Shown here: positions 12,439 to 53,628 of the stretch, in pieces
Position numbering within the stretch: position 1 is the first letter of the stretch
Layout: each line of letters begins with the position of its first letter
Made by a program: the position numbers and the translations under genes
Origin: Deltaproteobacteria bacterium
GTDB lineage: Bacteria; Desulfobacterota; JADFVX01
NCBI GenBank assembly: GCA_029860075.1
Contig: JAOUBX010000011.1
Span: 11,031 to 75,030 of the forward strand
Length of the DNA: 64,000 bases
Direction of reading: 5' to 3'
The notes under the pieces: model-generated
Database searches by the model: none
The model's input: only the letters and a program-made list of their open reading frames with translations
What the model was told of the DNA's origin: nothing

Positions 12439-12461
12439 TTTATAGGGAGACTTTATGACAA

Positions 12462-12497: not shown

Positions 12498-12511
12498 GAT
12501 TAATAGTACGA

Positions 12512-13225
12512 TTATCGTCTATCACCTATAATTCTTAAAAGCATAAGGAAGAGATTTATAAAATCCAGATACAAGGTAAGCGCGCCGCGTATAGCCTCCT
12601 TCGTATCCTCTTCCGTTCCTTCATTACCAAGAATATTCATCTTGAGGATTTTCTGCGTATCATATGCAGTAAGACCCACAAAGACGAGAACTCCCAGGTA
12701 AGTAGTGGCCCAGTAAATGGCAGGGCTTTGCAGAAAAATATTGACTACCGACGCAATAATTATCCCTATAAGACCCATAAAAAAGAAACTGCCCCAGGAT
12801 GTGAGGTCTTTCTTCGTTGTAGCGCCATAGAGAGACATGGCGCCGAAAGTTCCTGCTGAAACAATAAAGGCAGTAGCAATAGAGGACTGCGTATACACCA
12901 TAAAGATGAATGATAAAGTAAGACCATTCAAAATTGAATAACCCCAGAAAACAGCGGCTGCTGTAGAGGCCTTCATCTTCATTACCCAGCCGGCAAGAGC
13001 ACCAACCATAAGAAGTTCAACAATGATAAGTCCGAAAAATACCATCCTGTTTGAAAAAATAAGGCTGTTAATCGCTGAAACATTGGCCGCTGCATAGGCC
13101 ACAACACCTGTAAGGAGCAAACCTCCCGCCATCCAGTTATAGACCCTTAAAAGAAATCTGGCCTGTTCCGACTGTACATCACTGACTGTTTTTGTATCCC
13201 TGTAACTAGTTTCTTGTACTTCCAC
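12512..13225 (-). CDS. Bax inhibitor-1/YccA family membrane protein
   Basis: 237 aa, seven hydrophobic segments, BI-1/TMBIM-like sequence. Confidence 0.7.
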   Translation of the reverse strand: MEVQETSYRDTKTVSDVQSEQARFLLRVYNWMAGGLLLTGVVAYAAANVSAINSLIFSNRMVFFGLIIVELLMVGALAGWVMKMKASTAAAVFWGYSILNGLTLSFIFMVYTQSSIATAFIVSAGTFGAMSLYGATTKKDLTSWGSFFFMGLIGIIIASVVNIFLQSPAIYWATTYLGVLVFVGLTAYDTQKILKMNILGNEGTEEDTKEAIRGALTLYLDFINLFLMLLRIIGDRR

Positions 13226-13990: not shown

Positions 13991-14176
13991 TTAACGATTA
14001 TTTCTGATGGATCCGACAATAAAAAGAATGATGCCTGAAAATAGAAAAAGTGTTGAAGTTTCAATGAGATGAAGACCACCACGCCAGGAAAGTAATAAAT
14101 TCAAGCTTCCCAGGAAGGTAAGAACAGCGCCAAGGATGCGTGTTTTAACGCCTTTTTTTAATTCAACGTCTTCCAC
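13991..14176 (-). CDS. Small two-TM membrane protein, hypothetical
   Basis: 61 aa, two hydrophobic helices. Its start overlaps the 3' end of the radical SAM gene by 14 bp, suggesting translational coupling. Confidence 0.4.
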   Translation of the reverse strand: MEDVELKKGVKTRILGAVLTFLGSLNLLLSWRGGLHLIETSTLFLFSGIILFIVGSIRNNR

Positions 14177-15389
14177 CGACCTTGCTCCTCATGGCTTCCA
14201 TAATATCAGGAGTAATTACCTGGTAACCTTTGGTTCGCGCATAGCGTTCCAGCCCCTTTTTTACCATCTTGCGTAAAAATATGGGTACTTTTTCGAGACG
14301 TTCCTTTGCTTCCGGCGTCCAGCCAAGTTCTCCCTTATGAGGGAGTGCTATGCCACTTTCGGCCTTGTCCGGTTCATAATCACACCAGGGATCTTCACCC
14401 ATTACATCCCCTGTGGCAGAAAGGGCCCTGGCACGGCAGCCACCGCAAACATCATTGTAGCGGCAATCACCGCATTTTCCATTATATTGAGGGGCCCTCA
14501 TCTGCTTGAATATGGGCGACCTGTCCCAGATTTCCACTAGTGACTCTTTTTTAAGGTTACCACCGGATGTGGTCATATAGGGACATGGTGTCACATCCGC
14601 CTCAGGAGAGATCCTGAAATAACCACTACCGGCAATGCAGCCGCTGGTAGCGCCTTTCATAATGGATGAGTCCGGTGAATTCTGCTGCACTACCCTCAAA
14701 AAATGCGGTGCACAGCGCGCCCTCACCATAGTTTTACCGGCATATTCTTCTTCTGCTTTAGCGAGCCAGGTAAGCATCTTTTCATACTGCGGGGGCGTAA
14801 TGTCCGTCATTTCCTGCCCCCGACCTGTGCAAACAAGAAAAAAGACATTTGCAACTTTGGCCCCTTTTTGAGAGGCAAATTCGATCAATTCGGGGATTTC
14901 ATCATAATTGTTTCGGGTCACGGTAAATTGCAGCTGAAATTCAAGGTCATTTTTTTTCAATAAGTCGATAGCGTCAACCGTCTTTTGCCAACATCCGGGA
15001 CTTCCTCTAAAGTCGTCATGACTTACGGGATTAATAGAATCGAGGCTCAAGCCCACACCCTGAAGACCGGCCAGTTTCATACGAAGAATAACTGCCTCAT
15101 TGAGCAGAGTTCCATTGGTTCCAAGTACGACATTAAGACCCTTATCTGAAGCATACTGTACAATATCAATCAGATCAGGCCTGGCCAGAGGTTCTCCCCC
15201 TGTTAGAATCAGCATGGCGCCGGGACAAAGTTCAGCTATCTCATCGACTATACCAAGAGCCTCAGCGGTCGTTAAATCGCCCTCCCCTCCTTCCAGCTCG
15301 GCAGCATCGAGGTAGCAGTGCTCACATTTCAAATTACAACGCTTGGTCAGGTTCCATGAGATTAAAAAGGGGACTGCGCTTCTGGTCAT
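14163..15389 (-). CDS. Radical SAM/SPASM protein of the AhbC/AhbD/NirJ family with a C-terminal PCP_red-like domain
   Basis: N-terminal ISWNLTKRCNLKCEHCY (CX3CX2C) is typical of AhbD/NirJ haem-modifying radical SAM enzymes. The Cys-rich C-terminal region CGDCRYNDVCGGCRARA is SPASM-like. The last ~50 aa (GWTPEAKERLEKVPIFLRKMVKKGLERYARTKGYQVITPDIMEAM) resemble the BchB C-terminal PCP_red domain. Confidence 0.7.
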   Translation of the reverse strand: MTRSAVPFLISWNLTKRCNLKCEHCYLDAAELEGGEGDLTTAEALGIVDEIAELCPGAMLILTGGEPLARPDLIDIVQYASDKGLNVVLGTNGTLLNEAVILRMKLAGLQGVGLSLDSINPVSHDDFRGSPGCWQKTVDAIDLLKKNDLEFQLQFTVTRNNYDEIPELIEFASQKGAKVANVFFLVCTGRGQEMTDITPPQYEKMLTWLAKAEEEYAGKTMVRARCAPHFLRVVQQNSPDSSIMKGATSGCIAGSGYFRISPEADVTPCPYMTTSGGNLKKESLVEIWDRSPIFKQMRAPQYNGKCGDCRYNDVCGGCRARALSATGDVMGEDPWCDYEPDKAESGIALPHKGELGWTPEAKERLEKVPIFLRKMVKKGLERYARTKGYQVITPDIMEAMRSKVGGRR

Positions 15390-16834
15390 GATAATGTCCT
15401 TTCCGTTGCATGTAGTACAGGGCTTTCCCTTTGACTTTTTTTAAACTTCACATGCTCTGCATCAAATTGACGCCCAATAGTTTCAGCAACCGTCTTTCCC
15501 TGTGAAATACAGGCCCTTACAGAAACACCCTGCAAATAATTACCCGTTACATGGAGTCCGGGAATAAGAGCCAGTTCTTCATCCAGTTTTTTCAGAAACA
15601 TTTGATGCCCCAGGTTATATTGAGGGAGCGCCTTTTTATGGCGAACAACACGAGTCAAAGAGGGGAAACCTTTTACTCCCACAAGCTGGCGTAAATCTTT
15701 AAGGCATCGATCGATGAGTTCCTCATCAGGAAGATCCACCAAATCCTTATTTCTCATCCCCCCCAAATAGGAGGTAAAGAGCACCTCATCACCCTTCGTC
15801 CGTCCCGGAAAAAGGGTTGAAGACCAGAGAGAGCCAAGGCTGGAAAATCCTTTTTCCCTTGCAGGAATCAAACAACCAATACCATCCAGTTTATGTTCTA
15901 CATCTTCTCTTTTGAAAGTGATATAGATTATATTCATTGAGGAATACTCGATACCTTTTAGCATCATGGACAGGTTGACCGATAGTTGATCAACAAGCCC
16001 GGCAGCAATACCGGCAGGAGTGGCCATAACGACGGCATCCCCCTTTATAATTGAGTTCCCGGCAGAACCGGTATGAACATACCATTCTTTACCGACACGC
16101 TCGATTTTTTCAATGGGACAATCGGTAACCAGCTTATCGCCAAGATAATTGCCAAGACCTTTAATGAGACTTTCCATACCGTCTTTAAAGGAAAAGACTT
16201 CAGCGGCACAGGCCGTCCTGATTCCTTTCATCTTCCTTGCAACAACTCCCTTAAGAATACTTCCGTGATCTTGTTCGAGGGCCGCAAATTGTTTAAAAGT
16301 GCTTTTCAGGCAAGCTTTTTCAGCATCACCGGCAAGCGTTCCTGTTACATAGGGTTCAATGGAACGATCAAAAACCTCACGCCCCAGCCGACGGGTAATA
16401 AACTGGGCCACCGTCTCTTCCTGCTCAGGTGCACTTTTAGGAATTAGAGGCTCCACCATGAGCCGCAGCTTTGCCTTTAAACTCCAGAGGTCACTAAAGA
16501 TAAGTTCCCCTATCTTCATGGGAACAACTTTGGGCTTACCATTTTTAACGAGATATCGTCGCTTTGCCGCTTCCTGCCGGGCAATTTTTTCAGGGCCTAA
16601 ACCGAGGGTATTAACCATAAAGTTAACTTCAGGGAGGAAATTAAAAACACAATTGGCCGCATGATCAATTAGAGCGCCACCAACTCTTTCACTCTTGATG
16701 AGCCCCCCGGCTCTGGCATTTCTTTCAAGGACAACAGCATGAAAGCCCTTTTGCTTCAGCCAGAAGGCAGCCGAAAGGCCTGAAATACCTCCACCGATGA
16801 TGATCACTCTTTTTTTGTTAAGATCAACTGCCAT
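15386..16834 (-). CDS. FAD-dependent protoporphyrinogen/coproporphyrinogen oxidase (HemY/CgoX-like)
   Basis: 482 aa, N-terminal VIIIGGGISGLSAAFWL dinucleotide fold, amine-oxidase-like HemY family. Overlaps the downstream radical SAM gene by 4 bp. Confidence 0.75.
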   Translation of the reverse strand: MAVDLNKKRVIIIGGGISGLSAAFWLKQKGFHAVVLERNARAGGLIKSERVGGALIDHAANCVFNFLPEVNFMVNTLGLGPEKIARQEAAKRRYLVKNGKPKVVPMKIGELIFSDLWSLKAKLRLMVEPLIPKSAPEQEETVAQFITRRLGREVFDRSIEPYVTGTLAGDAEKACLKSTFKQFAALEQDHGSILKGVVARKMKGIRTACAAEVFSFKDGMESLIKGLGNYLGDKLVTDCPIEKIERVGKEWYVHTGSAGNSIIKGDAVVMATPAGIAAGLVDQLSVNLSMMLKGIEYSSMNIIYITFKREDVEHKLDGIGCLIPAREKGFSSLGSLWSSTLFPGRTKGDEVLFTSYLGGMRNKDLVDLPDEELIDRCLKDLRQLVGVKGFPSLTRVVRHKKALPQYNLGHQMFLKKLDEELALIPGLHVTGNYLQGVSVRACISQGKTVAETIGRQFDAEHVKFKKSQRESPVLHATERTLS

Positions 16835-16860: not shown

Positions 16861-16962
16861 AGTGCCTAAAGTGAACTAAAGTGAACTAAAGTGCCTGAAA
16901 TGTAATTTCTACTTCTTAAATTTAGGCACTTTAAACTTTAGGCATTTTAGGCACTTTTACCG
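16861..16962. repeat. Palindromic array of AGTGCCTAAAGT-type units
   Basis: Left arm AGTGCCTAAAGTGAACTAAAGTGAACTAAAGTGCCTGAAAT. Right arm AAATTTAGGCACTTTAAACTTTAGGCATTTTAGGCACTTTT. This forms a long imperfect hairpin that overlaps the last codons of the cytochrome gene ending at 16947. Confidence 0.8.
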
Positions 16963-18479
16963 TTCTTCCTCCTGGCAGTGGTAAACCACCAGAACTCGCC
17001 CCCTATAATGACAGCGATCACCAAAAGGGGAATGTAGTAAACATCGGCCCCGGCCGCTGGTTTTAGGAAGAGCCAATACCAGGTTGACATGGTATGTTTG
17101 GAGCCTTTCTCGCTATTGCTGCCATCCCAGGCGGCAAAGGCAATGGGAACAAATCTGCCTGTAGGAATCTGAAGATCAGTCGAACCATCAGCCGTCGTTA
17201 AGGGTCTTTTCATAACAACACGCCATGCCCCCTTTTCATAGTGCGACTTAGCCTCAAGTCCGACTGTTGCGGCATCTCTTTTTTCTATGGCCCCAAAACC
17301 TTTACTATTAAGGAGTTGGATCATCTCGGGCTTTTCCGTAGTGCCACTCTTCCAGTGCCATACATTGACGGGGTTAGAAGCATCGCCCATCCCGAAATAG
17401 GGTTTTTCCATATCACTGGGATCATCGGATATGGCCAGGGGGAGCTGAACCGCCACTCCGTCCTCAAAGAGGTTTTCATCGGCAATATTGGCCGCTACAC
17501 TATCACCGGGAATACTTTTGGTCCTGTCATCCCACTCAAGAAGCATGGAAATTTCCTTATCATTGTAGAATGCCCGGAGTGTAATCGTGTCATTGGATGG
17601 TGTAAAGAAACGATCCTTGGCAATAATTTGAGGAAGCAGATAGAAGGTTGTCGGCTCACTGCTTGCCCATTTTTCATCTGTCGGTGAATGGGGAAGATCC
17701 CCTTCGAGTTTTTCCGCCTTAACTACTGTATTTTCACCTTTAACGACCTTCTCTGTCTTGGCAAGAGAAGCGGCATAATTGGCCACATGCCACCGCTCTT
17801 CGATAGAAAGCTTCTTTTTACTTGCCGGGTCGGCAAAAGAAGGCATCTGCGTGCCATGAATACCCACTGAAATACGGGAATAAATATCCCTGGGGTCATT
17901 GCTGCCCCTGAAAGTCCATGGCTTTGTCAGGTTTCTGGGCCAGGTCCTGAAACCGAGATCATCTTTCAGTTTCTTAATGGCGTTCCCCTTCCCTTCTTCA
18001 CCATGGCATTCGGAGCAGCGGTCAATAAAGAGTTCTTTTCCTTTTTTTATACTATCTTCAGATGATTGAATCTGCTTGCCATAATCAACCTGGTCCGTCG
18101 GTTTTTCCTCTTCATAACCGGCAAAGGTTTTGATATAGGCCACAAGATCCCACATGTCCTGTTCAGAGATAATATCGTCCCAGCCGGGCATTGCCGTTCC
18201 CGGCATACCCTCGGCAATCATTCTATAAATATCTTCATCATTGGGTACGGGATCATCAAAGCCGGTTGTTTTGATCTTGTACATGCCCGAACTAAAGTCC
18301 CTGGGCGGAGGATTGAGCCGTTCAGCGGCAGGACCATCTCCCTCTCCCTCTTCACCATGACACCAGACACAGCGTTTGTTATAGACCTTTGTCCCATTCT
18401 CTACATTGCCCGGTTTGGCTATGGCGTTACAGACCAACAAAGCTGAAATAATTAACGCAATAAGAACATGCTTTTTCAT
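16947..18479 (-). CDS. Dihaem cytochrome c with large C-terminal domain and C-terminal TM anchor (paralogue of 36673..38298)
   Basis: Signal peptide, CVWCH and CSECH motifs, ~300-aa C-terminal domain, terminal hydrophobic helix VYYIPLLVIAVIIGGEFWWF. Confidence 0.8.
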   Translation of the reverse strand: MKKHVLIALIISALLVCNAIAKPGNVENGTKVYNKRCVWCHGEEGEGDGPAAERLNPPPRDFSSGMYKIKTTGFDDPVPNDEDIYRMIAEGMPGTAMPGWDDIISEQDMWDLVAYIKTFAGYEEEKPTDQVDYGKQIQSSEDSIKKGKELFIDRCSECHGEEGKGNAIKKLKDDLGFRTWPRNLTKPWTFRGSNDPRDIYSRISVGIHGTQMPSFADPASKKKLSIEERWHVANYAASLAKTEKVVKGENTVVKAEKLEGDLPHSPTDEKWASSEPTTFYLLPQIIAKDRFFTPSNDTITLRAFYNDKEISMLLEWDDRTKSIPGDSVAANIADENLFEDGVAVQLPLAISDDPSDMEKPYFGMGDASNPVNVWHWKSGTTEKPEMIQLLNSKGFGAIEKRDAATVGLEAKSHYEKGAWRVVMKRPLTTADGSTDLQIPTGRFVPIAFAAWDGSNSEKGSKHTMSTWYWLFLKPAAGADVYYIPLLVIAVIIGGEFWWFTTARRKNGKSA

Positions 18480-18685
18480 AGTTACCGTCCTAAATCATTA
18501 TTGAAGAAAAATTGAAACTACTCATTTAATCCTTACTTCCCCTCTTTAGCAAAGGGGGGCGATGGGGAGATTTGAATAGCTATACCTTACTTAAATCCCC
18601 CTTAATTCCCCTTTACCAAAGGGGGAGAGTCCACATATCTTTCTCAGACTAATCCCATTACAATCTGCGCTTAGTTAATCATTAT

Positions 18686-19456
18686 TTAATGACCCTCTCC
18701 CCATGACCTCGGCGCCTGGCCTGTATAATCATAGAGAAAAAGAATAACCTTCCAAATTTCGTCTTCTGTCAGAAAATCCTCCCAGATGGGCATGGACGAT
18801 ATCCAGGGGGCAGCCTCTTTAGGCAGCCCCGGACCTCCCGTTGCTATTCTCCAAAAAAGAAAAGATTCCTGTAACTGGGCAATGGTCCCTACATCCTGAA
18901 AGTTGATGGGAAGTGGATTGAGTCTCTCCGCATAAGGTCCCCTGCCATCTAGCTTATCTCCATGACAATACTGACAGTTCTGGATATAAACATCTCCACC
19001 TTCCTTGACAAACTCTTTAAACTTTTCGGGATCTTCTTTTTCAAACTTCCTGTAGGGATTTTCAAGGGTCGACAGATCAAAACGCTTTCCAAAGGCTTTT
19101 AAAGTCGATGGTGGCGCAGGATGAATCGTTCTTAGTTCGACGGGGGCTTCAAAACTTGGAAGCATTTTTTGAAAGGTATAGCCTCCTATCAATAAAGGAA
19201 TAAGAGCAAAGACAATATTTCGAACCATCTTTTGTGAAGGGTCCTCAACGAGCGCCTTGATCGGTGCGGCAAGCTCCCTGGTACTCTCTTCCGTCGCCGT
19301 ATAGACCATTAGAACGCCTACGATAACGAAGAACATATACATGGTAAGCAGGCTTGATGGTATGAGCTGGCCAAGAATGACACCAAATATAATCTTGAAT
19401 GCGGCGTATATTCCTACAACAACTAAGACGGCCTGTAATAACTTGGGTATTTTCAT
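18686..19456 (-). CDS. Membrane-anchored monohaem cytochrome c (paralogue of 38380..39369)
   Basis: Two N-terminal TM helices and a single CQYCH motif. Clear similarity to 38380..39369 (shared GGPGLP and PINF motifs). Confidence 0.8.
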   Translation of the reverse strand: MKIPKLLQAVLVVVGIYAAFKIIFGVILGQLIPSSLLTMYMFFVIVGVLMVYTATEESTRELAAPIKALVEDPSQKMVRNIVFALIPLLIGGYTFQKMLPSFEAPVELRTIHPAPPSTLKAFGKRFDLSTLENPYRKFEKEDPEKFKEFVKEGGDVYIQNCQYCHGDKLDGRGPYAERLNPLPINFQDVGTIAQLQESFLFWRIATGGPGLPKEAAPWISSMPIWEDFLTEDEIWKVILFLYDYTGQAPRSWGEGH

Positions 19457-19470
19457 TTCTTAAGCTCTCC

Positions 19471-20280
19471 TTATTTCTGACTTGCCATATACTTAACGAG
19501 AATCTCCAACTCACTTGCAGCCATCTGCTCACCGAGGTCCGGCGGCATCATATCAGGCTCAAAGCCCTTTGCTATGTCGGCATTGGGATCAAGTATGGCC
19601 CTTCTCAGATAATTACTATCAACACTGGCACCTATTTTAGTCAGGTCCGGAGCGATGTCCCCAAGGTGACCTGCAATTTTATGGCACATGCCGCAGCCAA
19701 ATTTTTCAACAATCTCTTCCGGTGTTTTTAAGGCAACACGTACAGTCTCTTCCTCCCCTTCTTCCTCTGCAGGTGCATCAGTGGGGATCTCTACCGTTAC
19801 ATCGACACCGGCCGAATCCTGTAAGTAGGCAATAACGGCTTTTACCTCAGCATCTGAAAGTCCGATGCTCCCTGATGAAACATCGGGCATGGGACTAACC
19901 GTATCATTCGTCCCGGCCTTACCGAATCCGGCTACCACAAAGGCGGAGGGTTTAATGAGAGATTCCATAACATAGGCTTCCGAACTCTTTGCCTCCCCTT
20001 TGTAGCGGGCATCCTTCATCCGCTCTTCAGCAATGGCGGCAACCTTATTTATCATTGGCGCCCGCCCCAGTTCATTATGACAAAGCGTACAGGTTCCCTT
20101 TCCTTTATATATCTTTTCACCAAGTGCAATGAAGGTGTCCATCGTCATGGCACCCAGATCGAGTTTTTCCTCCACCGGCGGCGGAGCAGGCTTGACGTTG
20201 GGAATTCCATAGTTGGCATAGAGCGAAAAAGCTTCTATAGCCAAGACACTGAAGATCACTACCTTTAAAAAAGTCTTCAT
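19471..20280 (-). CDS. Dihaem class-I cytochrome c (paralogue of 39397..40371)
   Basis: Signal peptide, CTLCH and CGMCH motifs. Shares SLIKPSAFVVAGF / EVKAVIAYLQ blocks with the paralogue. Confidence 0.8.
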   Translation of the reverse strand: MKTFLKVVIFSVLAIEAFSLYANYGIPNVKPAPPPVEEKLDLGAMTMDTFIALGEKIYKGKGTCTLCHNELGRAPMINKVAAIAEERMKDARYKGEAKSSEAYVMESLIKPSAFVVAGFGKAGTNDTVSPMPDVSSGSIGLSDAEVKAVIAYLQDSAGVDVTVEIPTDAPAEEEGEEETVRVALKTPEEIVEKFGCGMCHKIAGHLGDIAPDLTKIGASVDSNYLRRAILDPNADIAKGFEPDMMPPDLGEQMAASELEILVKYMASQK

Positions 20281-20304
20281 CTAAATACTCCTTACTTGAA
20301 CGGC

Positions 20305-22161
20305 TCAGGTCGTGGCCGTTTTCTTCGTGCTTATCTGGGCAAGCCAGAAGATAAATATAACGAGGGCCATAAAGATGAGCGCCCCCGTCGAAACCACGTT
20401 AGCCGCATAACCGAGGGTCGGCGTAAATGCATCGGGAGAGGCATCTCTCATAATGTCCTTCACATGCCAATGCTGCCTGATTCCGGAGCGAATGTATCCC
20501 ATAAGGCCCATAAGCCAGGTAAAGGAAACGGCCAAAAGAAAAAGGGCATACTGCGACCGGTCCGGCACCTTTCCCCAGTTAAGAGGCGCCACTTCCTTTG
20601 CCCCCTTATACATAAAGGTGTCGATAACAGTGCATAAGACAATGATCACCAGCGTCGTACAGACCTGTGGAATGGAGGCTGCCACTTTGTAAACGGTATT
20701 GGTAAAGTAACCGTAATAAACACCAAGGATGAGAATATTGATGATACCCGCTGTAAAGATGGCCGACTGAGCGGCATTACCCGCCTTTTCCCAGCTTACA
20801 ACAGCCACTTTATTGCACCGCCGGTAAAGCATGAAGCTTAAGAAGGTAAAGGAGATCATAATATTTACAGCTGTATTCTTGGCAGGCATAATACCGAGAG
20901 GCCCGAGGTATTTATTGTAGGGACCACCCAGCGATTTAAGTTCTGCATTTGTCAGGATAAGTGTATGAGGTGTAAACCAGACCAAAAATGCACCGATGAC
21001 TGCAATGGCAATATACTTGATATACCTGGTATATCTGACAGCGCCTTCACTTCTCCCCATACAGCACCAGAGATAATAGTTTGCAGAGAGAAAAAGAGCC
21101 CCAATGAGGACGGCCTGAATAATAAAGAGCCAGGCAAAAACACCTCCCATGAGAGTAATTCCCATCTGTTGGCTATAGGCATAAATCTCGGCTGTCAGAT
21201 AATAGCCTGCAAAGGGCAATGGAAGCAGTGCCGATATGGCGATGAAGTTGGCATTATAGCCCATCCAGTCATAATGTGCTCTTTCCTCGGCCTTTGTTGC
21301 ACAGAGGAATTTATAGGCCGCATAGGCGCCGACAATGGAACCGCCATAGGCAACGTTGGCAATCACCCTGTGCAGGTTGATGGGATTCCATAAAAAATTA
21401 TGAATCACATCCCATTCGGAACCGAGGAATGCCCCCTTAATATCGACACCTGCCGGACTCATCATAAAGGTGACCCAGGCATTGGCCAGGAGCATCAAAG
21501 TGGTACCGACGGCATTAAGCATAAGCCCTATGGTGAGATGAACCCATTTTCTAAAACCTCCCTGCAGCCACTGCCAGCCATAATAATAGATGTAAAGGCA
21601 GGCGGATTCGGCAAAGAAGAGGAAAGCATAGGCCAGCATGGTCTTGCTAAATATGGATGAAAGATATTTAAAGAAATCAGGATAAAAAACGAGAAGTCCG
21701 AAAGCAGTAAGCCCGCCCAGGATAGCTGTTATGGAATAAGCCGTGAGACTAACCTTAATGAACTCATAGGCCATATCATCAAATTTTTTGTCCTTTGTCG
21801 CCATGCCGATAGATTCAATGATGAAGACAAAGATGGGAACGGCAAGAACAAAGGCGGCAAACCATAAGTGAAGCTGGGCGGCAAGCCAGACAAAGACCCT
21901 GCCGTTAATTCCGGGAATTTGCGGATAATCATCCGCTGTCAGTACCGGCGCCGGGGGATAAACTTTCGCAGCAACCGCTTCTTCACCGGCAGCGGGTTCG
22001 GCAGGAGGAGCCGCCTCTTCCTGCGAACTTGCAAGAGCCTCTGCAATACCGGAAAGTGATCTGTCAAAAGCGCCTAAATCGACTATCTGCACCAGGGCAG
22101 ATGCAATGAGAAGAAATAACAGTAACGCTCTCCACTTCTTAATAAAAGAAAGCAAGCTCAT
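20305..22161 (-). CDS. Cytochrome bd superfamily (CydA-like) membrane protein, CydB-less, copy 1
   Basis: 618 aa polytopic. N-terminal AAQLHLWFAAFVLAVPIFVFIIESIG aligns with the CydA His19/Glu helix-1 motif. NAWVTFMMSPAG aligns with the CydA NGWMQNP region. C-terminal GYIRSGIRQHWHV aligns with the CydA GWxxAExGRQPW motif. No cydB follows. Confidence 0.8.
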   Translation of the reverse strand: MSLLSFIKKWRALLLFLLIASALVQIVDLGAFDRSLSGIAEALASSQEEAAPPAEPAAGEEAVAAKVYPPAPVLTADDYPQIPGINGRVFVWLAAQLHLWFAAFVLAVPIFVFIIESIGMATKDKKFDDMAYEFIKVSLTAYSITAILGGLTAFGLLVFYPDFFKYLSSIFSKTMLAYAFLFFAESACLYIYYYGWQWLQGGFRKWVHLTIGLMLNAVGTTLMLLANAWVTFMMSPAGVDIKGAFLGSEWDVIHNFLWNPINLHRVIANVAYGGSIVGAYAAYKFLCATKAEERAHYDWMGYNANFIAISALLPLPFAGYYLTAEIYAYSQQMGITLMGGVFAWLFIIQAVLIGALFLSANYYLWCCMGRSEGAVRYTRYIKYIAIAVIGAFLVWFTPHTLILTNAELKSLGGPYNKYLGPLGIMPAKNTAVNIMISFTFLSFMLYRRCNKVAVVSWEKAGNAAQSAIFTAGIINILILGVYYGYFTNTVYKVAASIPQVCTTLVIIVLCTVIDTFMYKGAKEVAPLNWGKVPDRSQYALFLLAVSFTWLMGLMGYIRSGIRQHWHVKDIMRDASPDAFTPTLGYAANVVSTGALIFMALVIFIFWLAQISTKKTATT

Positions 22162-22182: not shown

Positions 22183-22299
22183 TTAGTGATGAAAAAAGAG
22201 AGAGAGCCCCTGCGCTTTCATCAAACCAAAATCAAGGGCAAAGTAAATAACTGCTGATACGGCCAGAGAAACGATAAATGGGCCCATAAATGACTTCAT
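22183..22299 (-). CDS. Single-TM small peptide (38 aa), possible CydX-like accessory subunit
   Basis: MKSFMGPFIVSLAVSAVIYFALDFGLMKAQGLSLFFHH with GAGGAGG SD 5 nt upstream. Located 21 bp upstream of the cydA-like gene. Absent from the 60-aa-cutoff ORF track. Confidence 0.45.
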   Translation of the reverse strand: MKSFMGPFIVSLAVSAVIYFALDFGLMKAQGLSLFFHH

Positions 22300-22319: not shown

Positions 22320-22409
22320 TCATAAAAACCAGATAAAAAATGCTGTAATGGCAATAAGCACGACAATAAACAGAGCCGGCCCTGCCAATCCTGCTTTTTC
22401 TGAACTCAT
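22320..22409 (-). CDS. Single-TM small peptide (29 aa), hypothetical
   Basis: MSSEKAGLAGPALFIVVLIAITAFFIWFL, lying between the sigma-54 promoter and the cydA-like gene. Confidence 0.35.
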   Translation of the reverse strand: MSSEKAGLAGPALFIVVLIAITAFFIWFL

Positions 22410-22595: not shown

Positions 22596-22612
22596 TTGCA
22601 ACTGCCATGCCA
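22596..22612 (-). promoter_or_regulatory. Sigma-54 (-24/-12) promoter driving the cydA-like operon 1
   Basis: The minus strand reads TGGCAT-GGCAG-TTGCA, matching the TGGCAC-N5-TTGCW consensus. It sits about 190 bp upstream of the first small ORF. Confidence 0.7.
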
Positions 22613-23639: not shown

Positions 23640-23644
23640 TCTCT

Positions 23645-30794: not shown

Positions 30795-31157
30795 TTACTT
30801 TCCTTTGCACTTACAAAGCACCCGCAAATGCTTGATCAAGGCATCTACCTCTTTATCAGTCAGGGTCTTCGACCAGGGAGGCATCATGGGTGACTTGCTA
30901 AGTGCAGGACCGCCATCAATAATAACATTCTTAAGATCAGCATTGGAGAGTTTATTCATCTCCGCTGCATTAGTAAAGTTCCTCGGTGTAACAGGCATAT
31001 CCTTTGTAACATTGGGCCCGTCACCCTTACCTCCCACACCATGACACTGGGCGCAGTAAAAACTATAAAGCTCCTTTCCACCAGCTGCATCAGCCTGAGG
31101 CGTTGCTGCCAGAAGGAAAGAAAAAACCGCTAATAAACATACAGTAATTCTCATCAT
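30795..31157 (-). CDS. Periplasmic monohaem class-I cytochrome c
   Basis: 120 aa, signal peptide, CAQCH. Confidence 0.8.
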   Translation of the reverse strand: MMRITVCLLAVFSFLLAATPQADAAGGKELYSFYCAQCHGVGGKGDGPNVTKDMPVTPRNFTNAAEMNKLSNADLKNVIIDGGPALSKSPMMPPWSKTLTDKEVDALIKHLRVLCKCKGK

Positions 31158-31182
31158 ATCAATCTCTCCTTATTCAACTATC

Positions 31183-31860
31183 TTATTTGAAGCTGGCAAC
31201 AAAGGCCGATACATTTTTCATGTCTTTATCCTTCAGAAGACCCTTAAATACAGGCATAATCTTGACAGGCTTGAAAACCTTTGGATTTACCATATAGGCA
31301 TAGATCCAGTCAGGATTGAGTCGTTTGCCGGCTCCGACAAGTGACGGACCGGTCATACCACCGGATATTTTTTTCTTGAAGGGATATTGATGACAACCTG
31401 AACAGGGCATTTTTTTCATAAATATAAGCTTACCCTTTGGATTTTTCTTAGGCTTGATAACCCCTGCTTTGACATCCTTAGAAGTGAGTGTCATAAGGTA
31501 ATCTGTCACATTTGCCGCATCCCCCCCTGAGAGTTTAGGATGATTTCCTGGATTCTTCTTTGTCAGGGAATTAAAGGCTAATGGTCTGATGGGCTTGGGA
31601 TCCTGAAGCCATTTGGCCATCCACTCCTTCTGAAATTTGCTTCCCGCATACCAGAGTTCAGGCCCTTTTTTCTTTTTCTGATCGGCTATTGTCTTCTCAC
31701 GGGCAGGGCCTTTCGTATAATGACAACTTCCACCGCATTTCTTTGCCTTAAAAACCTTCTTTCCTGCCGCCGCATCGGCCCAGCTCATCCCGTTTGCCGC
31801 CAGAATGAAAGCAAATACCGACACTACTGATACTGTTCTCTTCCAAGTCACCACATTCAA
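31183..31860 (-). CDS. Periplasmic dihaem cytochrome c
   Basis: 225 aa, signal peptide. Haem motifs CGGSCH (CX3CH variant) and CSGCH. Confidence 0.7.
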   Translation of the reverse strand: MNVVTWKRTVSVVSVFAFILAANGMSWADAAAGKKVFKAKKCGGSCHYTKGPAREKTIADQKKKKGPELWYAGSKFQKEWMAKWLQDPKPIRPLAFNSLTKKNPGNHPKLSGGDAANVTDYLMTLTSKDVKAGVIKPKKNPKGKLIFMKKMPCSGCHQYPFKKKISGGMTGPSLVGAGKRLNPDWIYAYMVNPKVFKPVKIMPVFKGLLKDKDMKNVSAFVASFK

Positions 31861-36672: not shown

Positions 36673-38298
36673 TTACTCCTCTTCCCTTCTGACTCTTCTT
36701 ACTAGCCAGAACTCACCGAGGCCCGTCAAAACGACACCGAGCAGTGCATAGATATAAACGTTCATCGGCGTGGGGGCCTCCATAAAGAGATAGTGCCAGG
36801 AGGAGAGACTCATAATAAGTCCATGCTCACCATTTGATCCATCCCATGCATTTAAAGCGAGAGGGATAAATTTGCCCTCTTCGAACTGGACGTCATTCTT
36901 GTCCTCTGTTTTAAGGGGGCGCTTCATAACCACTTTGTATGTAGCTCCCTTCCAAATCGCCTTTGACGTCACCTGCTGCTGGTCGGCCGGCTGTGACTTT
37001 ATGGGCTGTTTGTAACCCCTTGCAATAGAATCCTCTACAGCCGGTTCGCCGGCTGCATCCTTGTCGGCCTTCCATAGCCAGAGGTTCACCGGGTTTCCTG
37101 CATCACCTCTGAAGAAGTGAGGCTTCTTCGTCCCTTCAGCCATTTTGACGGGGAACTGTAAGGCGATGGAATCTCTGAAGTTATCAAAGTGTCGCGGGAT
37201 CATATCATTTGCCGCTACATATGAATTATATGCCCCTATTTTACTTATTTCCCTGGCATTAAACTCCTGCGATTCATCGTGTGTAAGATCCTGGAAAGGA
37301 TCATCCCACTCGACAAGGATGGCTATCTCTTTATCGTTATAGAGAGCCCTTACACTGGCAAGTTCGATACTTGGATTCTGCCATCTTGGCGCAGCAATAA
37401 CCTGTCCTGCCAGCCTTACATCCATAGGCTCGGCATTTTGCCACTGCGGTGCCTCGGGATCCTGAGGAAGTTCTCCATCGATCTTCTTTGCCTTCATTAC
37501 CGAGTGCTCTGTAGGGGTATACTGGAGCGACTTGATGTAGTTAGCCAGGTACCACCTTTCCTCATCATTAAAAGATTTTGCAAAGGAAGGCATGGGAGTA
37601 CCCATAATACCCGTTGAAAAGCGCATATAAATATCTTCAACTTCTGACCCTGCTTTAATTTTCCATGGCTGGGTAATATTCCTGATACGAATGGGAAAGC
37701 CCCAGTCATCTTCTTTTATATCCTTCTGACCATCACCCTTACCGCCTTTCCCATGACATTCAAAGCATTTTGCCCTCATAAAGAGTTCCTTGCCTTTTGC
37801 AATGGTATCTGCATTGTAGGGTGCTTTATTCGCGGGAAGACTTATTACTTTTTTACTTGGATCAAGCTCGGGATCTTCAAATTCCATGGCAAAGGTTTTG
37901 ATGTAATAGATAACCTGCCACCGTTCCTCTTCTGTAAGACCGTTCTTAATAATGTCATTATCAAAGGCCTGCATGGGAGTTCCCTGCAGACCACGGCTGA
38001 CAGTCCTGAAAAGATCTTCATCGGTAGGCAACTCACCACTTCCCGTCGTCCTGAACTTGAATACACCAAGGGTAAAATCTCTCGGTCTGGGATCCATATA
38101 ATCGGCAGCCGGGCCATTACCGTCCCCTAAAAGCCCGTGGCAGAAGCTGCACCTTTTGTAGTATATCTCTCTCCCTTTTTCAACGTTCTCAGGCGTCACA
38201 GGCGGCTTCGCCTTAGTCGGTTTTATGCCGGCCAGGGCACTAGTCCCAAACATAGTCATCAATATCGTTATTGCCAGAATGATTGCTCTTCTCTGCAT
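36673..38298 (-). CDS. Dihaem cytochrome c with large C-terminal domain and C-terminal TM anchor (paralogue of 16947..18479)
   Basis: Signal peptide, CSFCH and CFECH. Shares the conserved NPVNLWLWK / AWDGSN blocks with the paralogue. Terminal TM helix. Confidence 0.8.
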   Translation of the reverse strand: MQRRAIILAITILMTMFGTSALAGIKPTKAKPPVTPENVEKGREIYYKRCSFCHGLLGDGNGPAADYMDPRPRDFTLGVFKFRTTGSGELPTDEDLFRTVSRGLQGTPMQAFDNDIIKNGLTEEERWQVIYYIKTFAMEFEDPELDPSKKVISLPANKAPYNADTIAKGKELFMRAKCFECHGKGGKGDGQKDIKEDDWGFPIRIRNITQPWKIKAGSEVEDIYMRFSTGIMGTPMPSFAKSFNDEERWYLANYIKSLQYTPTEHSVMKAKKIDGELPQDPEAPQWQNAEPMDVRLAGQVIAAPRWQNPSIELASVRALYNDKEIAILVEWDDPFQDLTHDESQEFNAREISKIGAYNSYVAANDMIPRHFDNFRDSIALQFPVKMAEGTKKPHFFRGDAGNPVNLWLWKADKDAAGEPAVEDSIARGYKQPIKSQPADQQQVTSKAIWKGATYKVVMKRPLKTEDKNDVQFEEGKFIPLALNAWDGSNGEHGLIMSLSSWHYLFMEAPTPMNVYIYALLGVVLTGLGEFWLVRRVRREEE

Positions 38299-38379
38299 GT
38301 CAACCCTCTCTTAAAATTTTCAATTGTTTATTGACGATTGTTGAATGATTTTTCAACCATCAATCGTCAATCTTCAATC

Positions 38380-39369: not shown

Positions 39370-39396
39370 TTATATCTCCCTTATCGTATCAATTCT

Positions 39397-40371: not shown

Positions 40372-40503
40372 TGATAACCTCCAAAGAATAGTTCTGAAAA
40401 TGACTTGTAATCTCCCCTAACCCCTCTTTTTCTAAGAGGGGAACATTGCTCTTTCCCCCTTAGAAAAAGGGGGATTAAGGGGATTTTCAAATAACTTTAT
40501 TAA

Positions 40504-53359: not shown

Positions 53360-53613
53360 TTATAAACTCCTTTCATGAAATTGACTTAATCCCACACCCC
53401 GAAATCGAAATTAATCTTTCTTTATCACCTCCTTTTCTCAATTCCCGGCAGTTACATGTCCCTTTAGTTTCTTCAATGAGGAGGGGAATGCATTCTCTAC
53501 CTTCACGCCCCGGTGATTACAACAAGGCGTTTTTTTATTCACATATTTCACATTTAAAAAGATGATTAACAGATGAATCAAGTAAATCTGTCATTTAATC
53601 ATGAGTGGTAATA

Positions 53614-53628
53614 GCAACAGACATGCCA
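53614..53628 (-). promoter_or_regulatory. Sigma-54 (-24/-12) promoter of the porin/CCP/aioBA operon
   Basis: The minus strand reads TGGCAT-GTCTG-TTGCT, about 255 bp upstream of the porin start. Confidence 0.7.

What the first reader, a model, noticed from the sequence alone, without database searches (positions are those of the whole stretch)
16947..22161. Operon 1: CydB-less cytochrome bd-like protein hard-wired to three dedicated c-type cytochromes
A CydA-superfamily membrane protein is followed within 15-25 bp spacings by a dihaem cytochrome c and a membrane-anchored monohaem cytochrome c. After a hairpin-rich gap comes a dihaem cytochrome c with a ~300-aa extra domain and TM anchor. Canonical cytochrome bd is a CydAB quinol oxidase with no c-type cytochromes. 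Here cydB is absent, and the c-type partners imply that electrons enter from periplasmic cytochrome c rather than quinol. The complex is about 1,650 aa with 5 c-haems, plus presumably the b/d haems of the CydA fold. Divergent bd-like clades lacking CydB have been noted in comparative surveys (for example in Nitrospira), but this four-gene module and its substrate (O2, NO or other) are, to my knowledge, uncharacterised.
Basis: partly seen in the sequence, partly recalled or inferred. Interest (0 to 1): 0.9.

Follow-up and report, generated by a model that had tools for sequence, protein, structure and literature searches.

The report
Known bd-like cytochrome c respiratory module
This is a real, strongly conserved operon for a membrane complex built around a cytochrome-bd-like protein and three c-type cytochromes, but it belongs to a kind already described in nitrite oxidisers and anammox bacteria, and its reaction has never been measured.

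Summary
Four minus-strand genes encode a 618-aa CydA-fold protein, a dihaem cytochrome c, a 3-TM monohaem cytochrome c, and a dihaem cytochrome c fused to an EbdC/NxrC-type haem-b domain with a TM anchor. There are five CxxCH motifs and no cydB in the 64 kb window.

It is not a new kind. Residue signature, 14 TM helices, missing Q-loop and operon content match subfamily OR-N2 of Murali et al. 2021. The gene order equals Kuenenia kustd1712-1709, the Nitrospira bd-like_3/alt_NxrC_2 cluster and Manganitrophus TO_1. All of these are biochemically uncharacterised.

New details found here:
- Two conserved small single-TM ORFs sit just upstream, so the unit has six genes.
- A sigma54-type promoter-like site lies upstream of them.
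- Gene order is kept in 66 of 67 genome loci from Alpha-, Gamma- and Zetaproteobacteria and related MAGs.
- The module is recurrently linked to two soluble cytochromes c, a HemY-like oxidase, an AhbD/NirJ-like radical-SAM enzyme and a Usp-PCP_red protein.
- A paralogous module elsewhere in the window follows an iodate-reductase-type (idrP-idrP-idrB-idrA-like) cluster.

Most likely function: a cytochrome-c-fed terminal reductase, probably of O2 (about 0.45). The main rival is a link between cytochrome c and the quinone pool.

The parts
22597..22612 (-). sigma54-type -24/-12 promoter-like site (TGGCATGGCAGTTGCA), 188 nt upstream of the first small ORF
   Evidence: 3 sites with at most 1 mismatch in the window against 0.33 expected. 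A second site (53628..53613) lies upstream of the Idr-like/module-2 operon, next to a sigma54-dependent response regulator. Function is inferred, not shown.
22320..22409 (-). small ORF sp29 (29 aa, one TM: MSSEKAGLAGPALFIVVLIAITAFFIWFL), a candidate small subunit
   Evidence: a homologue lies on the same strand within 900 bp upstream of the CydA-like gene in 73 of 75 loci; divergence at codon positions 1/2/3 is 0.35/0.26/0.58, the pattern of coding sequence.
22183..22299 (-). small ORF sp38 (38 aa, one TM: MKSFMGPFIVSLAVSAVIYFALDFGLMKAQGLSLFFHH), a candidate small subunit
   Evidence: ungapped hits in 66 loci, with a median of 35 nt upstream of the CydA-like start for the 38 hits that pass the positional filter (same strand, within 900 bp upstream). 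Codon-position divergence is 0.40/0.28/0.59. A GAGGAGG Shine-Dalgarno sequence is visible.
20305..22161 (-). CydA-like membrane protein, OR-N2 type (618 aa; an N-terminal helix plus 14 TM helices; no CxxCH; no Q-loop)
   Evidence: Signature residues H98/Y178/E185/H208/H264/M425-K428-N429/S559/W565 match the OR-N2 reference H99/Y183/E190/H213/H269/M430,N434/S563/W569.
19471..20280 (-). dihaem cytochrome c with an N-terminal anchor or signal (269 aa; CxxCH at 64 and 196)
   Evidence: Homologous to Kuenenia Kustd1711 (PDB 7zs0, E=1e-15), whose haems titrate at about +350 mV.
18686..19456 (-). membrane-anchored monohaem cytochrome c (256 aa; about 3 N-terminal TM helices; CxxCH at 161)
18480..18685 (-). 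206-nt intergenic spacer with two related palindromes; not a predicted terminator
16947..18479 (-). dihaem cytochrome c + EbdC/NxrC-type haem-b domain + C-terminal TM anchor (510 aa), the 'alternative NxrC' architecture
   Evidence: TIGR03477, 1.1e-34; 6h5l_B E=3e-46; EbdC 2ivf_C E=2e-16; NxrC 7b04_C. The EbdC Met108 equivalent M364 is kept in 50 of 68 orthologues and the Lys201 equivalent H462 in 61 of 68.
15386..16834 (-). HemY-type protoporphyrinogen/coproporphyrinogen oxidase; an associated gene, 112 bp downstream on the same strand
   Evidence: TIGR00562, 282 bits against a cutoff of 97.85. Linked to the module in many loci.
14163..15389 (-). AhbD/NirJ-like radical-SAM/SPASM enzyme with a C-terminal PCP_red domain; its start overlaps hemY by 4 bp
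   Evidence: best matches are AhbD (332 bits) and NirJ2 (321 bits), both below their 500-bit cutoffs. A homologue occurs in 37 of 54 loci with enough flank, and upstream of the module in the Zetaproteobacteria locus L080.
30795..31860 (-). two soluble c-type cytochromes (225 aa dihaem with CcoO-like similarity; 120 aa) that sit directly upstream of the module in most other genomes
   Evidence: homologues at 40% identity or more in 63 and 67 of 80 loci (median about 66%). Also present upstream of the Nitrospinae variant L084.
36673..42615 (-). paralogous second module (703, 324, 329 and 541 aa; 46/27/31/39% identity to module 1)
   Evidence: It has the same OR-N2 signature. A paralogue lies directly upstream of module 1 in 41 of 49 loci.
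57673..59472 (-). Usp x2 + PCP_red x2 protein; its homologue lies between the module and the rSAM gene in other genomes

Best explanation
The locus encodes an OR-N2-type 'bd-like' respiratory membrane complex. My confidence in this identity is about 0.95.

Shown:
- A 14-TM CydA-fold subunit keeps the His19 equivalent (H98, TM1). This is the ligand of the high-spin active-site haem in bd oxidases.
- It keeps the b558 His186 equivalent (H264).
- It keeps the proton-path residues Glu107 (E185) and His126 (H208).
- It has lost the Q-loop, Glu99 (now an invariant Tyr178) and Glu445 (now Ser559).
- It is co-encoded in fixed order with two small single-TM peptides, a Kustd1711-like dihaem cytochrome c, a 3-TM monohaem cytochrome c, and a dihaem cytochrome c fused to an EbdC-type haem-b domain with a TM anchor.

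Inferred mechanism:
1. Periplasmic electrons arrive on soluble high-potential cytochromes c. The conserved 225-aa and 120-aa cytochromes at 30795-31860 are the obvious candidates.
2. They pass through the five c haems and one b haem of the three anchored subunits to the b558-like haem (H264/M425).
3. They then reach the H98 haem, where an oxidant, most probably O2, is reduced.
4. Protons are taken from the cytoplasm via E185/H208, so a proton-motive force arises by charge separation, as in cytochrome bd.

The subunit logic parallels cbb3 oxidase: a catalytic b-haem subunit, an anchored monohaem c and an anchored dihaem c.

Transcription is probably sigma54-dependent and co-regulated with the paralogous module and the Idr-like molybdoenzyme cluster elsewhere in the window.
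For: Identity:
- Pfam and PDB sequence matches.
- AF2 model pLDDT 87.5 with the top ten fold matches all CydA.
- OR-N2 residue signature.
- Operon content as defined for OR-N2.
- Same gene order as kustd1712-1709, with c2 homologous to Kustd1711.

Complex formation:
- 66 of 67 loci are syntenic.
- Natural fusions of the CydA-like protein with the dihaem cytochrome exist (P0121, c2 region E=1e-33; P0138).
- All CxxCH motifs are invariant.

Cytochrome c donor and O2-type acceptor:
- There is no Q-loop.
- The cytochrome domains belong to the CcoP/CcoO-type families.
- The Kustd1711 haems sit at about +350 mV.
- The homologous clusters are among the most highly expressed genes in Nitrospira and Manganitrophus. 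Nitrospira lacks a canonical haem-copper oxidase, and Manganitrophus barely expresses its one.
- In a Planctomycete, a cytochrome c plus a COX1-family protein occupy the place downstream of the Idr-like cluster where Proteobacteria carry bd-like modules.
- Carriers are mostly microaerophilic or oxygen-minimum-zone lineages.

Autonomy of module 1: it occurs without the paralogue in 8 of 49 loci, including Zetaproteobacteria and Magnetococcales.
Against: - No enzymatic assay exists for any OR-N protein.
- The same four genes sit in the nxr cluster of the strict anaerobe Kuenenia and are co-regulated with NXR. O2 reduction therefore cannot be the universal role.
- Two residues essential for the dihaem O2 site of E. 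coli bd are replaced (Glu99 to Tyr, Glu445 to Ser). A b595/d pair may not exist.
- The Met393 equivalence (M425) rests on Murali's table and on conservation, not on a direct alignment made here.
- Five extra TM helices of unknown role could hold a quinone site.
- A relative is co-encoded with MrpD-like pump subunits, which would fit energy-coupled uphill electron transfer as well as oxidase-linked pumping.
- The sigma54 site is only a consensus match.
Confidence: 0.45

Rival explanations
1. Quinone-pool coupling module. The complex works like an alternative complex III. It moves electrons between the membrane quinone pool and periplasmic high-potential cytochromes c or molybdoenzymes, in either direction. 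In this organism it would feed the Idr-like reductase. In nitrite oxidisers it would run reverse electron transport.
For: - Proposed for the homologous cluster by Luecker 2013 and Mundinger 2019.
- The module is present in anaerobic Kuenenia within the nxr cluster.
- The paralogous module lies in one operon-like string with an idrP-idrP-idrB-idrA-like cluster, which needs an electron supply via cytochrome c.
- A variant carries MrpD-like subunits.
- There are five TM helices beyond the CydA core.
- The Glu99 and Glu445 equivalents are lost.
Against: - All residues and the loop that bind quinol in canonical CydA are missing, and no alternative quinone site can be identified.
- The only residues retained from bd oxidases are those of the haem and proton-path core used for O2 chemistry.
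- A COX1-family protein, not a quinol:cytochrome c reductase, replaces the module in Planctomycete L092.
- Foldseek similarity to ACIII ActC is at noise level (prob 0.18).
Confidence: 0.3
2. Reductase or scavenger for another oxidant tied to the linked molybdoenzyme. Candidates are NO, H2O2, hypoiodous acid, or O2 released during iodate reduction. In this view the complex is not a general respiratory oxidase.
For: - The island couples bd-like modules to an Idr-type cluster with two dihaem peroxidases.
- The Pseudomonas SCT model for iodate respiration invokes O2 formed from HIO being respired by a terminal oxidase.
- The active-site Glu-to-Tyr change suggests altered chemistry.
Against: - Module 1 occurs without any Idr-like genes within 8 kb in Zetaproteobacteria and Magnetococcales loci, and with NXR or Mn-oxidation contexts elsewhere.
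- No data exist on substrate.
- Whether the molybdoenzyme is Idr or Aio is itself unresolved.
Confidence: 0.1
3. Membrane anchor for a type II DMSO-reductase-family enzyme. The NxrC/EbdC-like domain of the 510-aa subunit docks a soluble Mo-enzyme alpha-beta pair, as proposed for NXR, and the rest only wires it to the membrane.
For: - The EB_dh domain is the gamma subunit of EBDH, NXR and related enzymes.
- Mundinger 2019 suggests alt_NxrC as an NXR anchor point.
Against: - No type II DMSO-reductase alpha or beta genes occur in the 64-kb window or in the flanks of the 80 proteobacterial loci examined.
- The linked molybdoenzyme here is Aio/Idr-type with its own Rieske subunit, and that family does not use a gamma subunit.
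Confidence: 0.08
4. The cytochrome genes are unrelated neighbours of an orphan CydA-like gene and are separately transcribed.
For: The 206-bp structured gap before the fourth gene.
Against: - 66 of 67 loci keep all genes in order.
- Gene fusions exist.
- There is no terminator-like site.
- The gap is short in most orthologous loci.
Confidence: 0.01

Closest known systems
OR-N2 subfamily of the cytochrome bd superfamily (Murali, Gennis & Hemp 2021; bioRxiv 10.1101/2021.01.16.426971)
   Same: 14 TM helices, no quinol site and no CxxCH in the CydA-like subunit. The residue signature matches (H19 and H186 kept; E99 to Y; E107 and H126 kept; E445 to S; W near the C-terminus). The operon holds several cytochromes c and an EbdC homologue.
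   Different: The reference is from Nitrospira. A full-length relative in a cluster whose members are labelled Nitrospira sp. or Manganitrophaceae (P0141; not the reference sequence) is 38% identical. This copy belongs to a very tightly conserved clade (72-82% identity) spread over Alpha-, Gamma- and Zetaproteobacteria and 'Delta' MAGs. That clade usually occurs as two tandem paralogous modules. I did not run their HMM classifier or tree.
Kuenenia stuttgartiensis kustd1712-1709 / Nitrospira bd-like_3 + alt_NxrC_2 cluster / Nitrospina homologue
   Same: The same four genes occur in the same order: cydA-like, dihaem c, monohaem c, then dihaem c with an NxrC-like domain and a TM anchor. The window dihaem cytochrome is homologous to the crystallised Kustd1711. 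A usp gene lies nearby in both.
   Different: Those clusters sit beside nxrABC. Here there is no NXR in the window. Linkage is instead to haem-related genes (HemY, AhbD-like rSAM, Usp-PCP_red) and, for the paralogue, to an Aio/Idr-type enzyme.
Candidatus Manganitrophus 'TO_1' terminal-oxidase complex
   Same: A bd-like oxidase plus two cytochromes c plus a periplasmic cytochrome b. It is highly expressed and proposed to be an O2 reductase.
   Different: I did not verify homology to TO_1 gene by gene. The one Nitrospirota/Manganitrophaceae relative whose locus I fetched (P0272, L081) is a solo gene next to a NuoF-like gene.
Canonical cytochrome bd quinol oxidase (CydAB, with CydX/CydS/CydH)
   Same: The CydA fold, the His19 and His186 ligand equivalents, and part of the proton path. 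Small single-TM peptides are encoded with it, reminiscent of CydX/CydS.
   Different: There is no CydB, no Q-loop or quinol site, and Glu99 and Glu445 are replaced. It has five extra TM helices and dedicated c-type cytochrome subunits. The small peptides show no tested homology to CydX.
cbb3-type cytochrome c oxidase (CcoNOP)
   Same: The subunit logic is the same: a membrane catalytic b-haem subunit, an anchored monohaem c and an anchored dihaem c. The cytochrome domains fall in the CcoP/CcoO-type families.
   Different: The catalytic subunit is not a haem-copper oxidase. Copper chaperones are not consistently linked (SCO1 in 5 of 80 loci).

Membership tests
Cytochrome bd superfamily (CydA fold, PF01654) | Sequence match to the CydA profile above the curated threshold | tested here: met
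   65.8 bits against 26.2, E=3.4e-18. Only the N-terminal half of the profile matches (positions 5-231 of 418). PDB CydA chains at E=7e-9 and 2e-7.
Cytochrome bd superfamily (CydA fold, PF01654) | CydA three-dimensional fold | tested here: met
   AF2 pLDDT 87.5 and pTM 0.85. The top ten Foldseek PDB hits are all CydA (E 3e-9 to 1e-5, prob 1.0, TM-score relative to target 0.49-0.59).
Cytochrome bd superfamily (CydA fold, PF01654) | His19 equivalent (axial ligand of the active-site haem) | tested here: met
   H98 aligns with His21 of G. thermodenitrificans CydA. It is conserved in 36 of 39 diverse relatives.
Canonical quinol-oxidising cytochrome bd (qOR, CydAB) | Q-loop and quinol-binding site between TM6 and TM7 | tested here: not met
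   TM helices follow one another without a hydrophilic loop of Q-loop size. The Pfam match stops before that region. Luecker 2013 reports the same for homologues.
Canonical quinol-oxidising cytochrome bd (qOR, CydAB) | CydB subunit encoded alongside | tested here: not met
   None of the large ORFs of the window that were scanned, which include every one in the CydB size range, is CydB-like.
Canonical quinol-oxidising cytochrome bd (qOR, CydAB) | Glu99 and Glu445 (haem d / b595 site), and Met393 (b558) | tested here: not met
   Glu99 is replaced by Tyr178 (direct alignment). Glu445 is replaced by Ser559, and Met393 corresponds to Met425, by correspondence with Murali's Table S6. The Met393 equivalence is inferred only.
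OR-N2 subfamily (Murali et al. 2021) | 14 TM helices, no quinol site, no haem-c motif in the CydA-like subunit | tested here: met
   an N-terminal helix plus 14 TM helices; no CxxCH.
OR-N2 subfamily (Murali et al. 2021) | Residue signature H/Y/E/H/H/M,N/S/W at the E. coli positions 19/99/107/126/186/393/445/441 of Murali's Table S6 | tested here: met
   H98, Y178, E185, H208, H264, M425/N429, S559 and W565 correspond to the reference H99, Y183, E190, H213, H269, M430/N434, S563 and W569.
OR-N2 subfamily (Murali et al. 2021) | Operon with multiple cytochromes c and an EbdC homologue | tested here: met
OR-N2 subfamily (Murali et al. 2021) | Placement in the authors' phylogeny or HMM classifier | not tested
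A full-length 38%-identical relative falls in a cluster whose members are labelled Nitrospira sp. or Manganitrophaceae.
OR-C family | CxxCH haem-c motifs within the CydA-like subunit; 8 TM helices | tested here: not met
nxr-cluster bd-like module (kustd1712-1709 type) | Gene order cydA-like, dihaem c, monohaem c, dihaem c/NxrC-like | tested here: met
   c2 is homologous to Kustd1711 (E=1e-15).
nxr-cluster bd-like module (kustd1712-1709 type) | Linkage to nxrABC | tested here: not met
   No NXR or type II DMSO-reductase genes occur in the window.
Haem-copper oxidases (cbb3 and relatives) | COX1-family catalytic subunit with a CuB site | tested here: not met
   There is no COX1 match. SCO1 is linked in only 5 of 80 loci.
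Alternative complex III | ActB/ActC-type subunits | tested here: not met
   No such domains were found. The Foldseek match to 6btm_C is at noise level (prob 0.18).

The most novel reading that the evidence does not exclude
In Proteobacteria and in this MAG, the OR-N2 module may be the core of a transferable respiratory island that has not been described as such. The evidence does not exclude the following reading.

- Module 1 travels with its own tetrapyrrole-handling set: a HemY-like oxidase, an AhbD/NirJ-like radical-SAM enzyme carrying a PCP_red domain, and a Usp-PCP_red protein. It also travels with two dedicated soluble cytochromes c and two small membrane peptides.
- In many genomes it is fused, through a paralogous module, to an iodate-reductase-type (IdrP1P2BA-like) molybdoenzyme cluster with a HEAT/PBS-lyase-like protein.
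- On this reading the bd-like complexes are the dedicated membrane partners of that enzyme, either as electron feed or as oxidant sink, and carry a tailored, non-standard haem made by the island's own enzymes.
Probability: 0.2. Interest if true: 0.8.

Novelty: new member of a known kind. Interest (0 to 1): 0.5.

Why it matters
What 'bd-like oxidases' do has been an open question since the first Nitrospira genome (2010). They are among the most expressed respiratory genes of nitrite oxidisers, anammox bacteria and Mn-oxidising Manganitrophus, yet no activity has been measured. Those hosts are slow-growing and not genetically tractable.

This locus shows a very well conserved version in Alpha-, Gamma- and Zetaproteobacteria and relatives. 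There are 278 GTDB species hits and more than 7,000 protein clusters. Its partners are clearly delimited: two small peptides, two soluble cytochromes and haem-related enzymes. In many genomes, including this one, there is also direct linkage to an Aio/Idr-type molybdoenzyme.

That gives concrete constructs for heterologous expression. If a cultured carrier is found, it also gives a route to genetics.

The practical consequence for annotation is modest. These genes are labelled 'cytochrome ubiquinol oxidase subunit I', which is almost certainly wrong as to the electron donor.

Tried and rejected
1. Copper site or copper-chaperone link. SCO1 and PCuAC lie divergently upstream (23010-24094), but SCO1 homologues are near the module in only 5 of 80 loci and PCuAC in 1. 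I rejected this as a conserved partner. The chaperones may serve the adjacent ccoQP or another oxidase.

2. Obligatory CydA/CydA' heterodimer of the two paralogous modules. Module 1 occurs alone in 8 of 49 loci, so this is not required.

3. The hairpin gap as a terminator or known RNA. There was no terminator-like hit, no Rfam family, no other copy of the palindrome in the window, and only z=-1.97 on folding.

4. Plasmid carriage. tblastn against PLSDB found nothing.

5. NCBIfam. There is no model for the CydA-like protein.

6. Direct check of Nitrospirota gene context. The two relatives fetched (P0272 in L081-L083; P0147 in L086) are solo genes without cytochrome partners. The equivalence to the Nitrospira, Kuenenia and Manganitrophus clusters therefore rests on the papers' descriptions plus the Kustd1711 and NxrC/EbdC homologies, not on my own alignment of those operons.

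7. Deciding Idr against Aio for the neighbouring molybdoenzyme by database names. All homologues are auto-annotated as arsenite oxidase. Only the two-peroxidase synteny criterion of Reyes-Umana et al. points to Idr.

8. Crude hydropathy TM counting was too noisy. I used the AF2 secondary structure instead.

Full report
**1. What is in the sequence**

On the minus strand, four ORFs lie at exactly the coordinates given:
- 22161..20305 (618 aa)
- 20280..19471 (269 aa)
- 19456..18686 (256 aa)
- 18479..16947 (510 aa)

The gaps between them are 24, 14 and 206 bp.

Pfam assignments:
- The 618-aa protein matches Cyt_bd_oxida_I (E=3.4e-18). The match covers only residues 90-320, against the first 231 of 418 profile positions.
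- The 269-aa protein has two cytochrome c domains.
- The 256-aa protein has one cytochrome c domain, behind about three N-terminal TM helices.
- The 510-aa protein has a signal peptide, two cytochrome c domains, an EB_dh domain (E=7.9e-28) and a C-terminal TM helix.

CxxCH motifs number 2+1+2, with none in the CydA-like protein. All five are invariant in 68-76 orthologues. No CydB-like ORF is present among the large ORFs of the window that were scanned. The one correction is that the 'extra about 300-aa domain' is the haem-b-binding gamma-subunit fold of ethylbenzene dehydrogenase and NXR. The supporting matches are TIGR03477 at 1.1e-34, and EbdC 2ivf_C at E=2e-16 and NxrC 7b04_C.

**2. The CydA-like protein**

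- phmmer against PDB finds only CydA chains (9r2g_A at 7e-9, 5doq_A at 2e-7).
- In those alignments H98 pairs with His21 of the Geobacillus enzyme (E. coli His19), E185 with Glu108 (E. coli Glu107), and Tyr178 with Glu101 (E. coli Glu99). H264 pairs with the TM5 histidine that ligates haem b558.
- An AlphaFold2 model built on 39 diverse relatives is confident (pLDDT 87.5, pTM 0.85). It shows an N-terminal helix followed by 14 TM helices and no hydrophilic loop of Q-loop size.
- Its ten best Foldseek matches in the PDB are all CydA subunits, followed by CydB.
- Across relatives down to about 30% identity, the nearly invariant residues are H98, E116, Y160, Y178, Y190, Y192, W196, H208, H264, R265, D298, Y363, W365, P398, K428 and R558.

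**3. It belongs to a described kind**

Murali, Gennis & Hemp (bioRxiv 10.1101/2021.01.16.426971) divide the bd superfamily into qOR, OR-C and OR-N.
- Their Table S6 gives the OR-N2 reference as 14 TM helices with H99, Y183, E190, H213, H269, M430/N434, S563 and W569.
- The window protein has H98, Y178, E185, H208, H264, M425/N429, S559 and W565. This is the same pattern at a constant offset.

The same four-gene set was described earlier:
[quoted passage not shown] 14 transmembrane helices ... in place of the Q-loop three predicted membrane helices' (PMC3578206).
- Nitrospira moscoviensis: the bd-like_3/alt_NxrC_2 cluster, among the 40 most transcribed genes (PMC6606698).
- Manganitrophus: TO_1, at the 98th expression percentile.
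- Kuenenia: kustd1712 (cydA-like), 1711 (dihaem), 1710 (monohaem) and 1709 (dihaem) reproduce the order.

The window's 269-aa cytochrome is homologous to the crystallised Kustd1711 (PDB 7zs0, E=1e-15), whose haems titrate near +350 mV (PMC11791136). A relative that aligns over nearly the whole length (38% identity, E=4.5e-119) falls in a cluster whose members are labelled Nitrospira sp. or Manganitrophaceae. The function remains experimentally unconfirmed (PMC10839748).

**4. How widespread and how constrained**

- The protein search returned 7,445 clusters at E of 1e-5 or less. The best 120 are 72-100% identical.
- The 50%-identity library holds 200 clusters at E of 1e-30 or less.
- A scan of one genome per GTDB species found 278 relatives. 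The best 80 come from Alpha-, Gamma- and Zetaproteobacteria, Magnetococcales and 'Deltaproteobacteria' MAGs, many from oxygen-minimum zones, sponges and groundwater.
- In 66 of 67 loci with enough sequence, the three cytochrome genes follow in the same order and strand.
- Natural fusions of the CydA-like protein with the dihaem cytochrome exist: P0121 (889 aa) and P0138 (807 aa, from a metagenome labelled Nitrospinae).

Independent neighbours are thereby excluded.

**5.

(a) Two small ORFs lie directly upstream on the same strand. Both have Shine-Dalgarno sequences and one predicted TM helix.
- sp29 is at 22409..22320.
- sp38 is at 22299..22183.
- Homologues lie at the same place in 73 of 75 loci (sp29) and in at least 66 loci (sp38).
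- Divergence is concentrated at third codon positions (0.35/0.26/0.58 and 0.40/0.28/0.59), as expected for coding sequence.
- They are candidate small subunits, by analogy with CydX/CydS. Homology to those was not tested.

(b) A sigma54-type site (TGGCATGGCAGTTGCA, 22612..22597) lies 188 nt upstream of sp29.
- Only three sites with at most one mismatch occur in the window, against 0.33 expected.
- Another (53628..53613) precedes the operon that contains the paralogous module and adjoins a sigma54-dependent response regulator and histidine kinase.

(c) Two soluble cytochromes c (window 31183-31860 and 30795-31157) have homologues directly upstream of the module in 63 and 67 of 80 loci. The same pair precedes the Nitrospinae variant.

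(d) Three haem-related genes are recurrent neighbours:
- a HemY-type oxidase (15386-16834; TIGR00562 at 282 bits against a cutoff of 97.85);
- an AhbD/NirJ-like radical-SAM/SPASM enzyme with a PCP_red domain (14163-15389; below the equivalog cutoffs);
- a Usp-PCP_red protein (57673-59472).
They lie downstream of the module in Alpha- and Gammaproteobacteria and upstream in the Zetaproteobacteria locus L080. Linkage thus persists through rearrangement.

**6. The wider island**

The window holds a second, paralogous module (42615..36673; 46/27/31/39% identity) with the same OR-N2 signature. In 41 of 49 loci such a paralogue lies directly upstream of the module-1 orthologue.

In the window, module 2 follows these genes:
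- a cytochrome c;
- a 773-aa HEAT/PBS-lyase-like protein;
- a molybdopterin subunit with a Rieske_3 domain (TIGR02693 at 420 bits against a cutoff of 359);
- a Rieske subunit;
- two dihaem CCP/MauG-type proteins.

The same string is found in L087 (on the same contig as L008), L088 and L089. Reyes-Umana et al. use exactly this two-peroxidase synteny to separate iodate reductase (IdrABP1P2) from arsenite oxidase. The taxa of the closest homologues (Alpha- and Gammaproteobacteria, NC10, Planctomycetes) match their IdrA distribution. I could not place the protein phylogenetically, so 'Idr-like' remains a lead.

Among the papers found by my text searches, none that mention idrA or iodate reductase also mention a bd or bd-like oxidase (for two papers read directly). 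In a Planctomycete (L092), a cytochrome c plus a COX1-family protein occupy the position downstream of the Idr-like cluster. In a Nitrospinota MAG (L091), nothing comparable follows.

**7. Mechanism**

Shown:
- The fold and the retained and lost residues.
- The cofactor-binding motifs.
- The fixed gene set.

Inferred: the electron path runs from soluble cytochromes c, through five c haems and one b haem, to the b558-like haem (H264/M425) and then to the H98 haem. An oxidant is reduced there, with protons supplied through E185/H208.

I favour O2 as the oxidant (about 0.45) for these reasons:
- The only bd features retained are those of the haem and proton core.
- The cytochrome subunits mimic CcoO and CcoP.
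- Homologous clusters dominate expression in organisms that lack other oxidases or barely express them.
- A COX1-family protein can take the module's place.
- Carriers are mostly microaerophiles.

The main rival (about 0.3) is a quinone-coupled conduit, as proposed for nitrite oxidisers and anammox bacteria. In its favour:
- The module's presence in anaerobic Kuenenia.
- The loss of the Glu99 and Glu445 equivalents.
- The extra TM helices.
- The MrpD-linked variant.
- The operon logic with a periplasmic reductase that needs electrons.

Neither can be decided with sequence tools.

**8. Verdict**

The object is a new member of a known, named, but biochemically uncharacterised kind (OR-N2 / bd-like-alt-NxrC module).

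The value added here is:
- the extended parts list (small peptides, sigma54 site, dedicated cytochromes, tetrapyrrole-related genes);
- the very tight conservation across proteobacterial classes;
- the linkage of the paralogous module to an Idr/Aio-type enzyme.

Together these offer a more tractable route to an old open question.

Noticed in passing
window 45733-51403 (minus strand): The apparent 'arsenite oxidase' (Mo subunit 45733-48450, Rieske 48463-49002) is preceded by two dihaem CCP/MauG genes (49016-50260 and 50276-51403). This is the idrP-idrP-idrB-idrA synteny that Reyes-Umana et al. use to distinguish iodate reductase from Aio. The TIGR02693 score is only just above its cutoff (420 against 359). 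The same string precedes bd-like modules in L087-L089.
   Followed up: partly
window 43344-45665 (minus strand); L087-L091: A 670-790-aa HEAT/PBS-lyase-like (NblB/CpcE-like) protein directly follows the Idr/Aio-like Mo subunit in the window and in five of the six other loci fetched around homologues of the Mo subunit. The exception is Planctomycete L092, where a porin follows. Its role is unknown. It was not mentioned in either of the two iodate-reduction papers I checked for it.
   Followed up: partly
window 14163-16834 and 57673-59472; L006, L080, L003: A HemY-type oxidase, an AhbD/NirJ-like radical-SAM enzyme with a PCP_red domain, and a Usp-PCP_red multi-domain protein stay linked to the bd-like module through rearrangements across proteobacterial classes. 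This suggests a dedicated tetrapyrrole supply or tailoring route.
   Followed up: partly
window 24682-25741 (plus strand): A CcoQ-like 66-aa ORF and a bona fide ccoP (TIGR00782 at 246 bits against a cutoff of 180) lie next to SCO1 and PCuAC, but no ccoN or ccoO is adjacent. This is an orphan ccoQP pair.
   Followed up: no
L084 (Nitrospinae hydrothermal-vent MAG) 5851-16000: A variant island: two soluble cytochromes c, a CydA-like::cytochrome c fusion (807 aa), two MrpD-like antiporter subunits, a 761-aa multihaem c + EB_dh protein and a dihaem c. It resembles Manganitrophus TO_2 and hints at ion-pump coupling.
   Followed up: no
L092 (Planctomycetes MAG) 14202-16468: Downstream of an Idr-like cluster, after a porin gene, a 277-aa cytochrome c and a 454-aa COX1-family protein stand where Proteobacteria carry bd-like modules. 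The COX1-family protein has no NCBIfam match.
   Followed up: partly
window 18539-18625 (minus strand): Two related GC-rich palindromes (CCCCCTTTGGTAAAGGGG and CCCCCCTTTGCTAAAGAGGGG) occupy the 206-bp gap before the fourth gene. There are no other copies in the window and no T-tract. They may be a REP-like or mRNA-stabilising element.
   Followed up: partly
L081-L083 and L086: Some OR-N-type CydA-like genes are solo genes without cytochrome partners. One, in contigs labelled Nitrospira sp. or Manganitrophaceae, sits next to a NuoF-like gene. Another is from an unnamed MAG.
   Followed up: no
(protein hits and loci L001-L080): CydA-like orthologues are 72-82% identical across Alpha-, Gamma- and Zetaproteobacteria, Magnetococcales and 'Delta' MAGs. 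This is far more than expected for vertical descent at class level and suggests lateral spread of the island and/or very strong constraint.
   Followed up: no
window 13753-13768 (minus strand): A third sigma54-type site with one mismatch (TGGCACGGTAGTTGTT) lies downstream of the radical-SAM gene and upstream of a Bax1-I family gene (13225..12512).
   Followed up: no
window 35904-36395 (minus strand): An Rrf2-family regulator gene lies 278 bp downstream of module 2. This family is often responsive to NO or Fe-S status.
   Followed up: no
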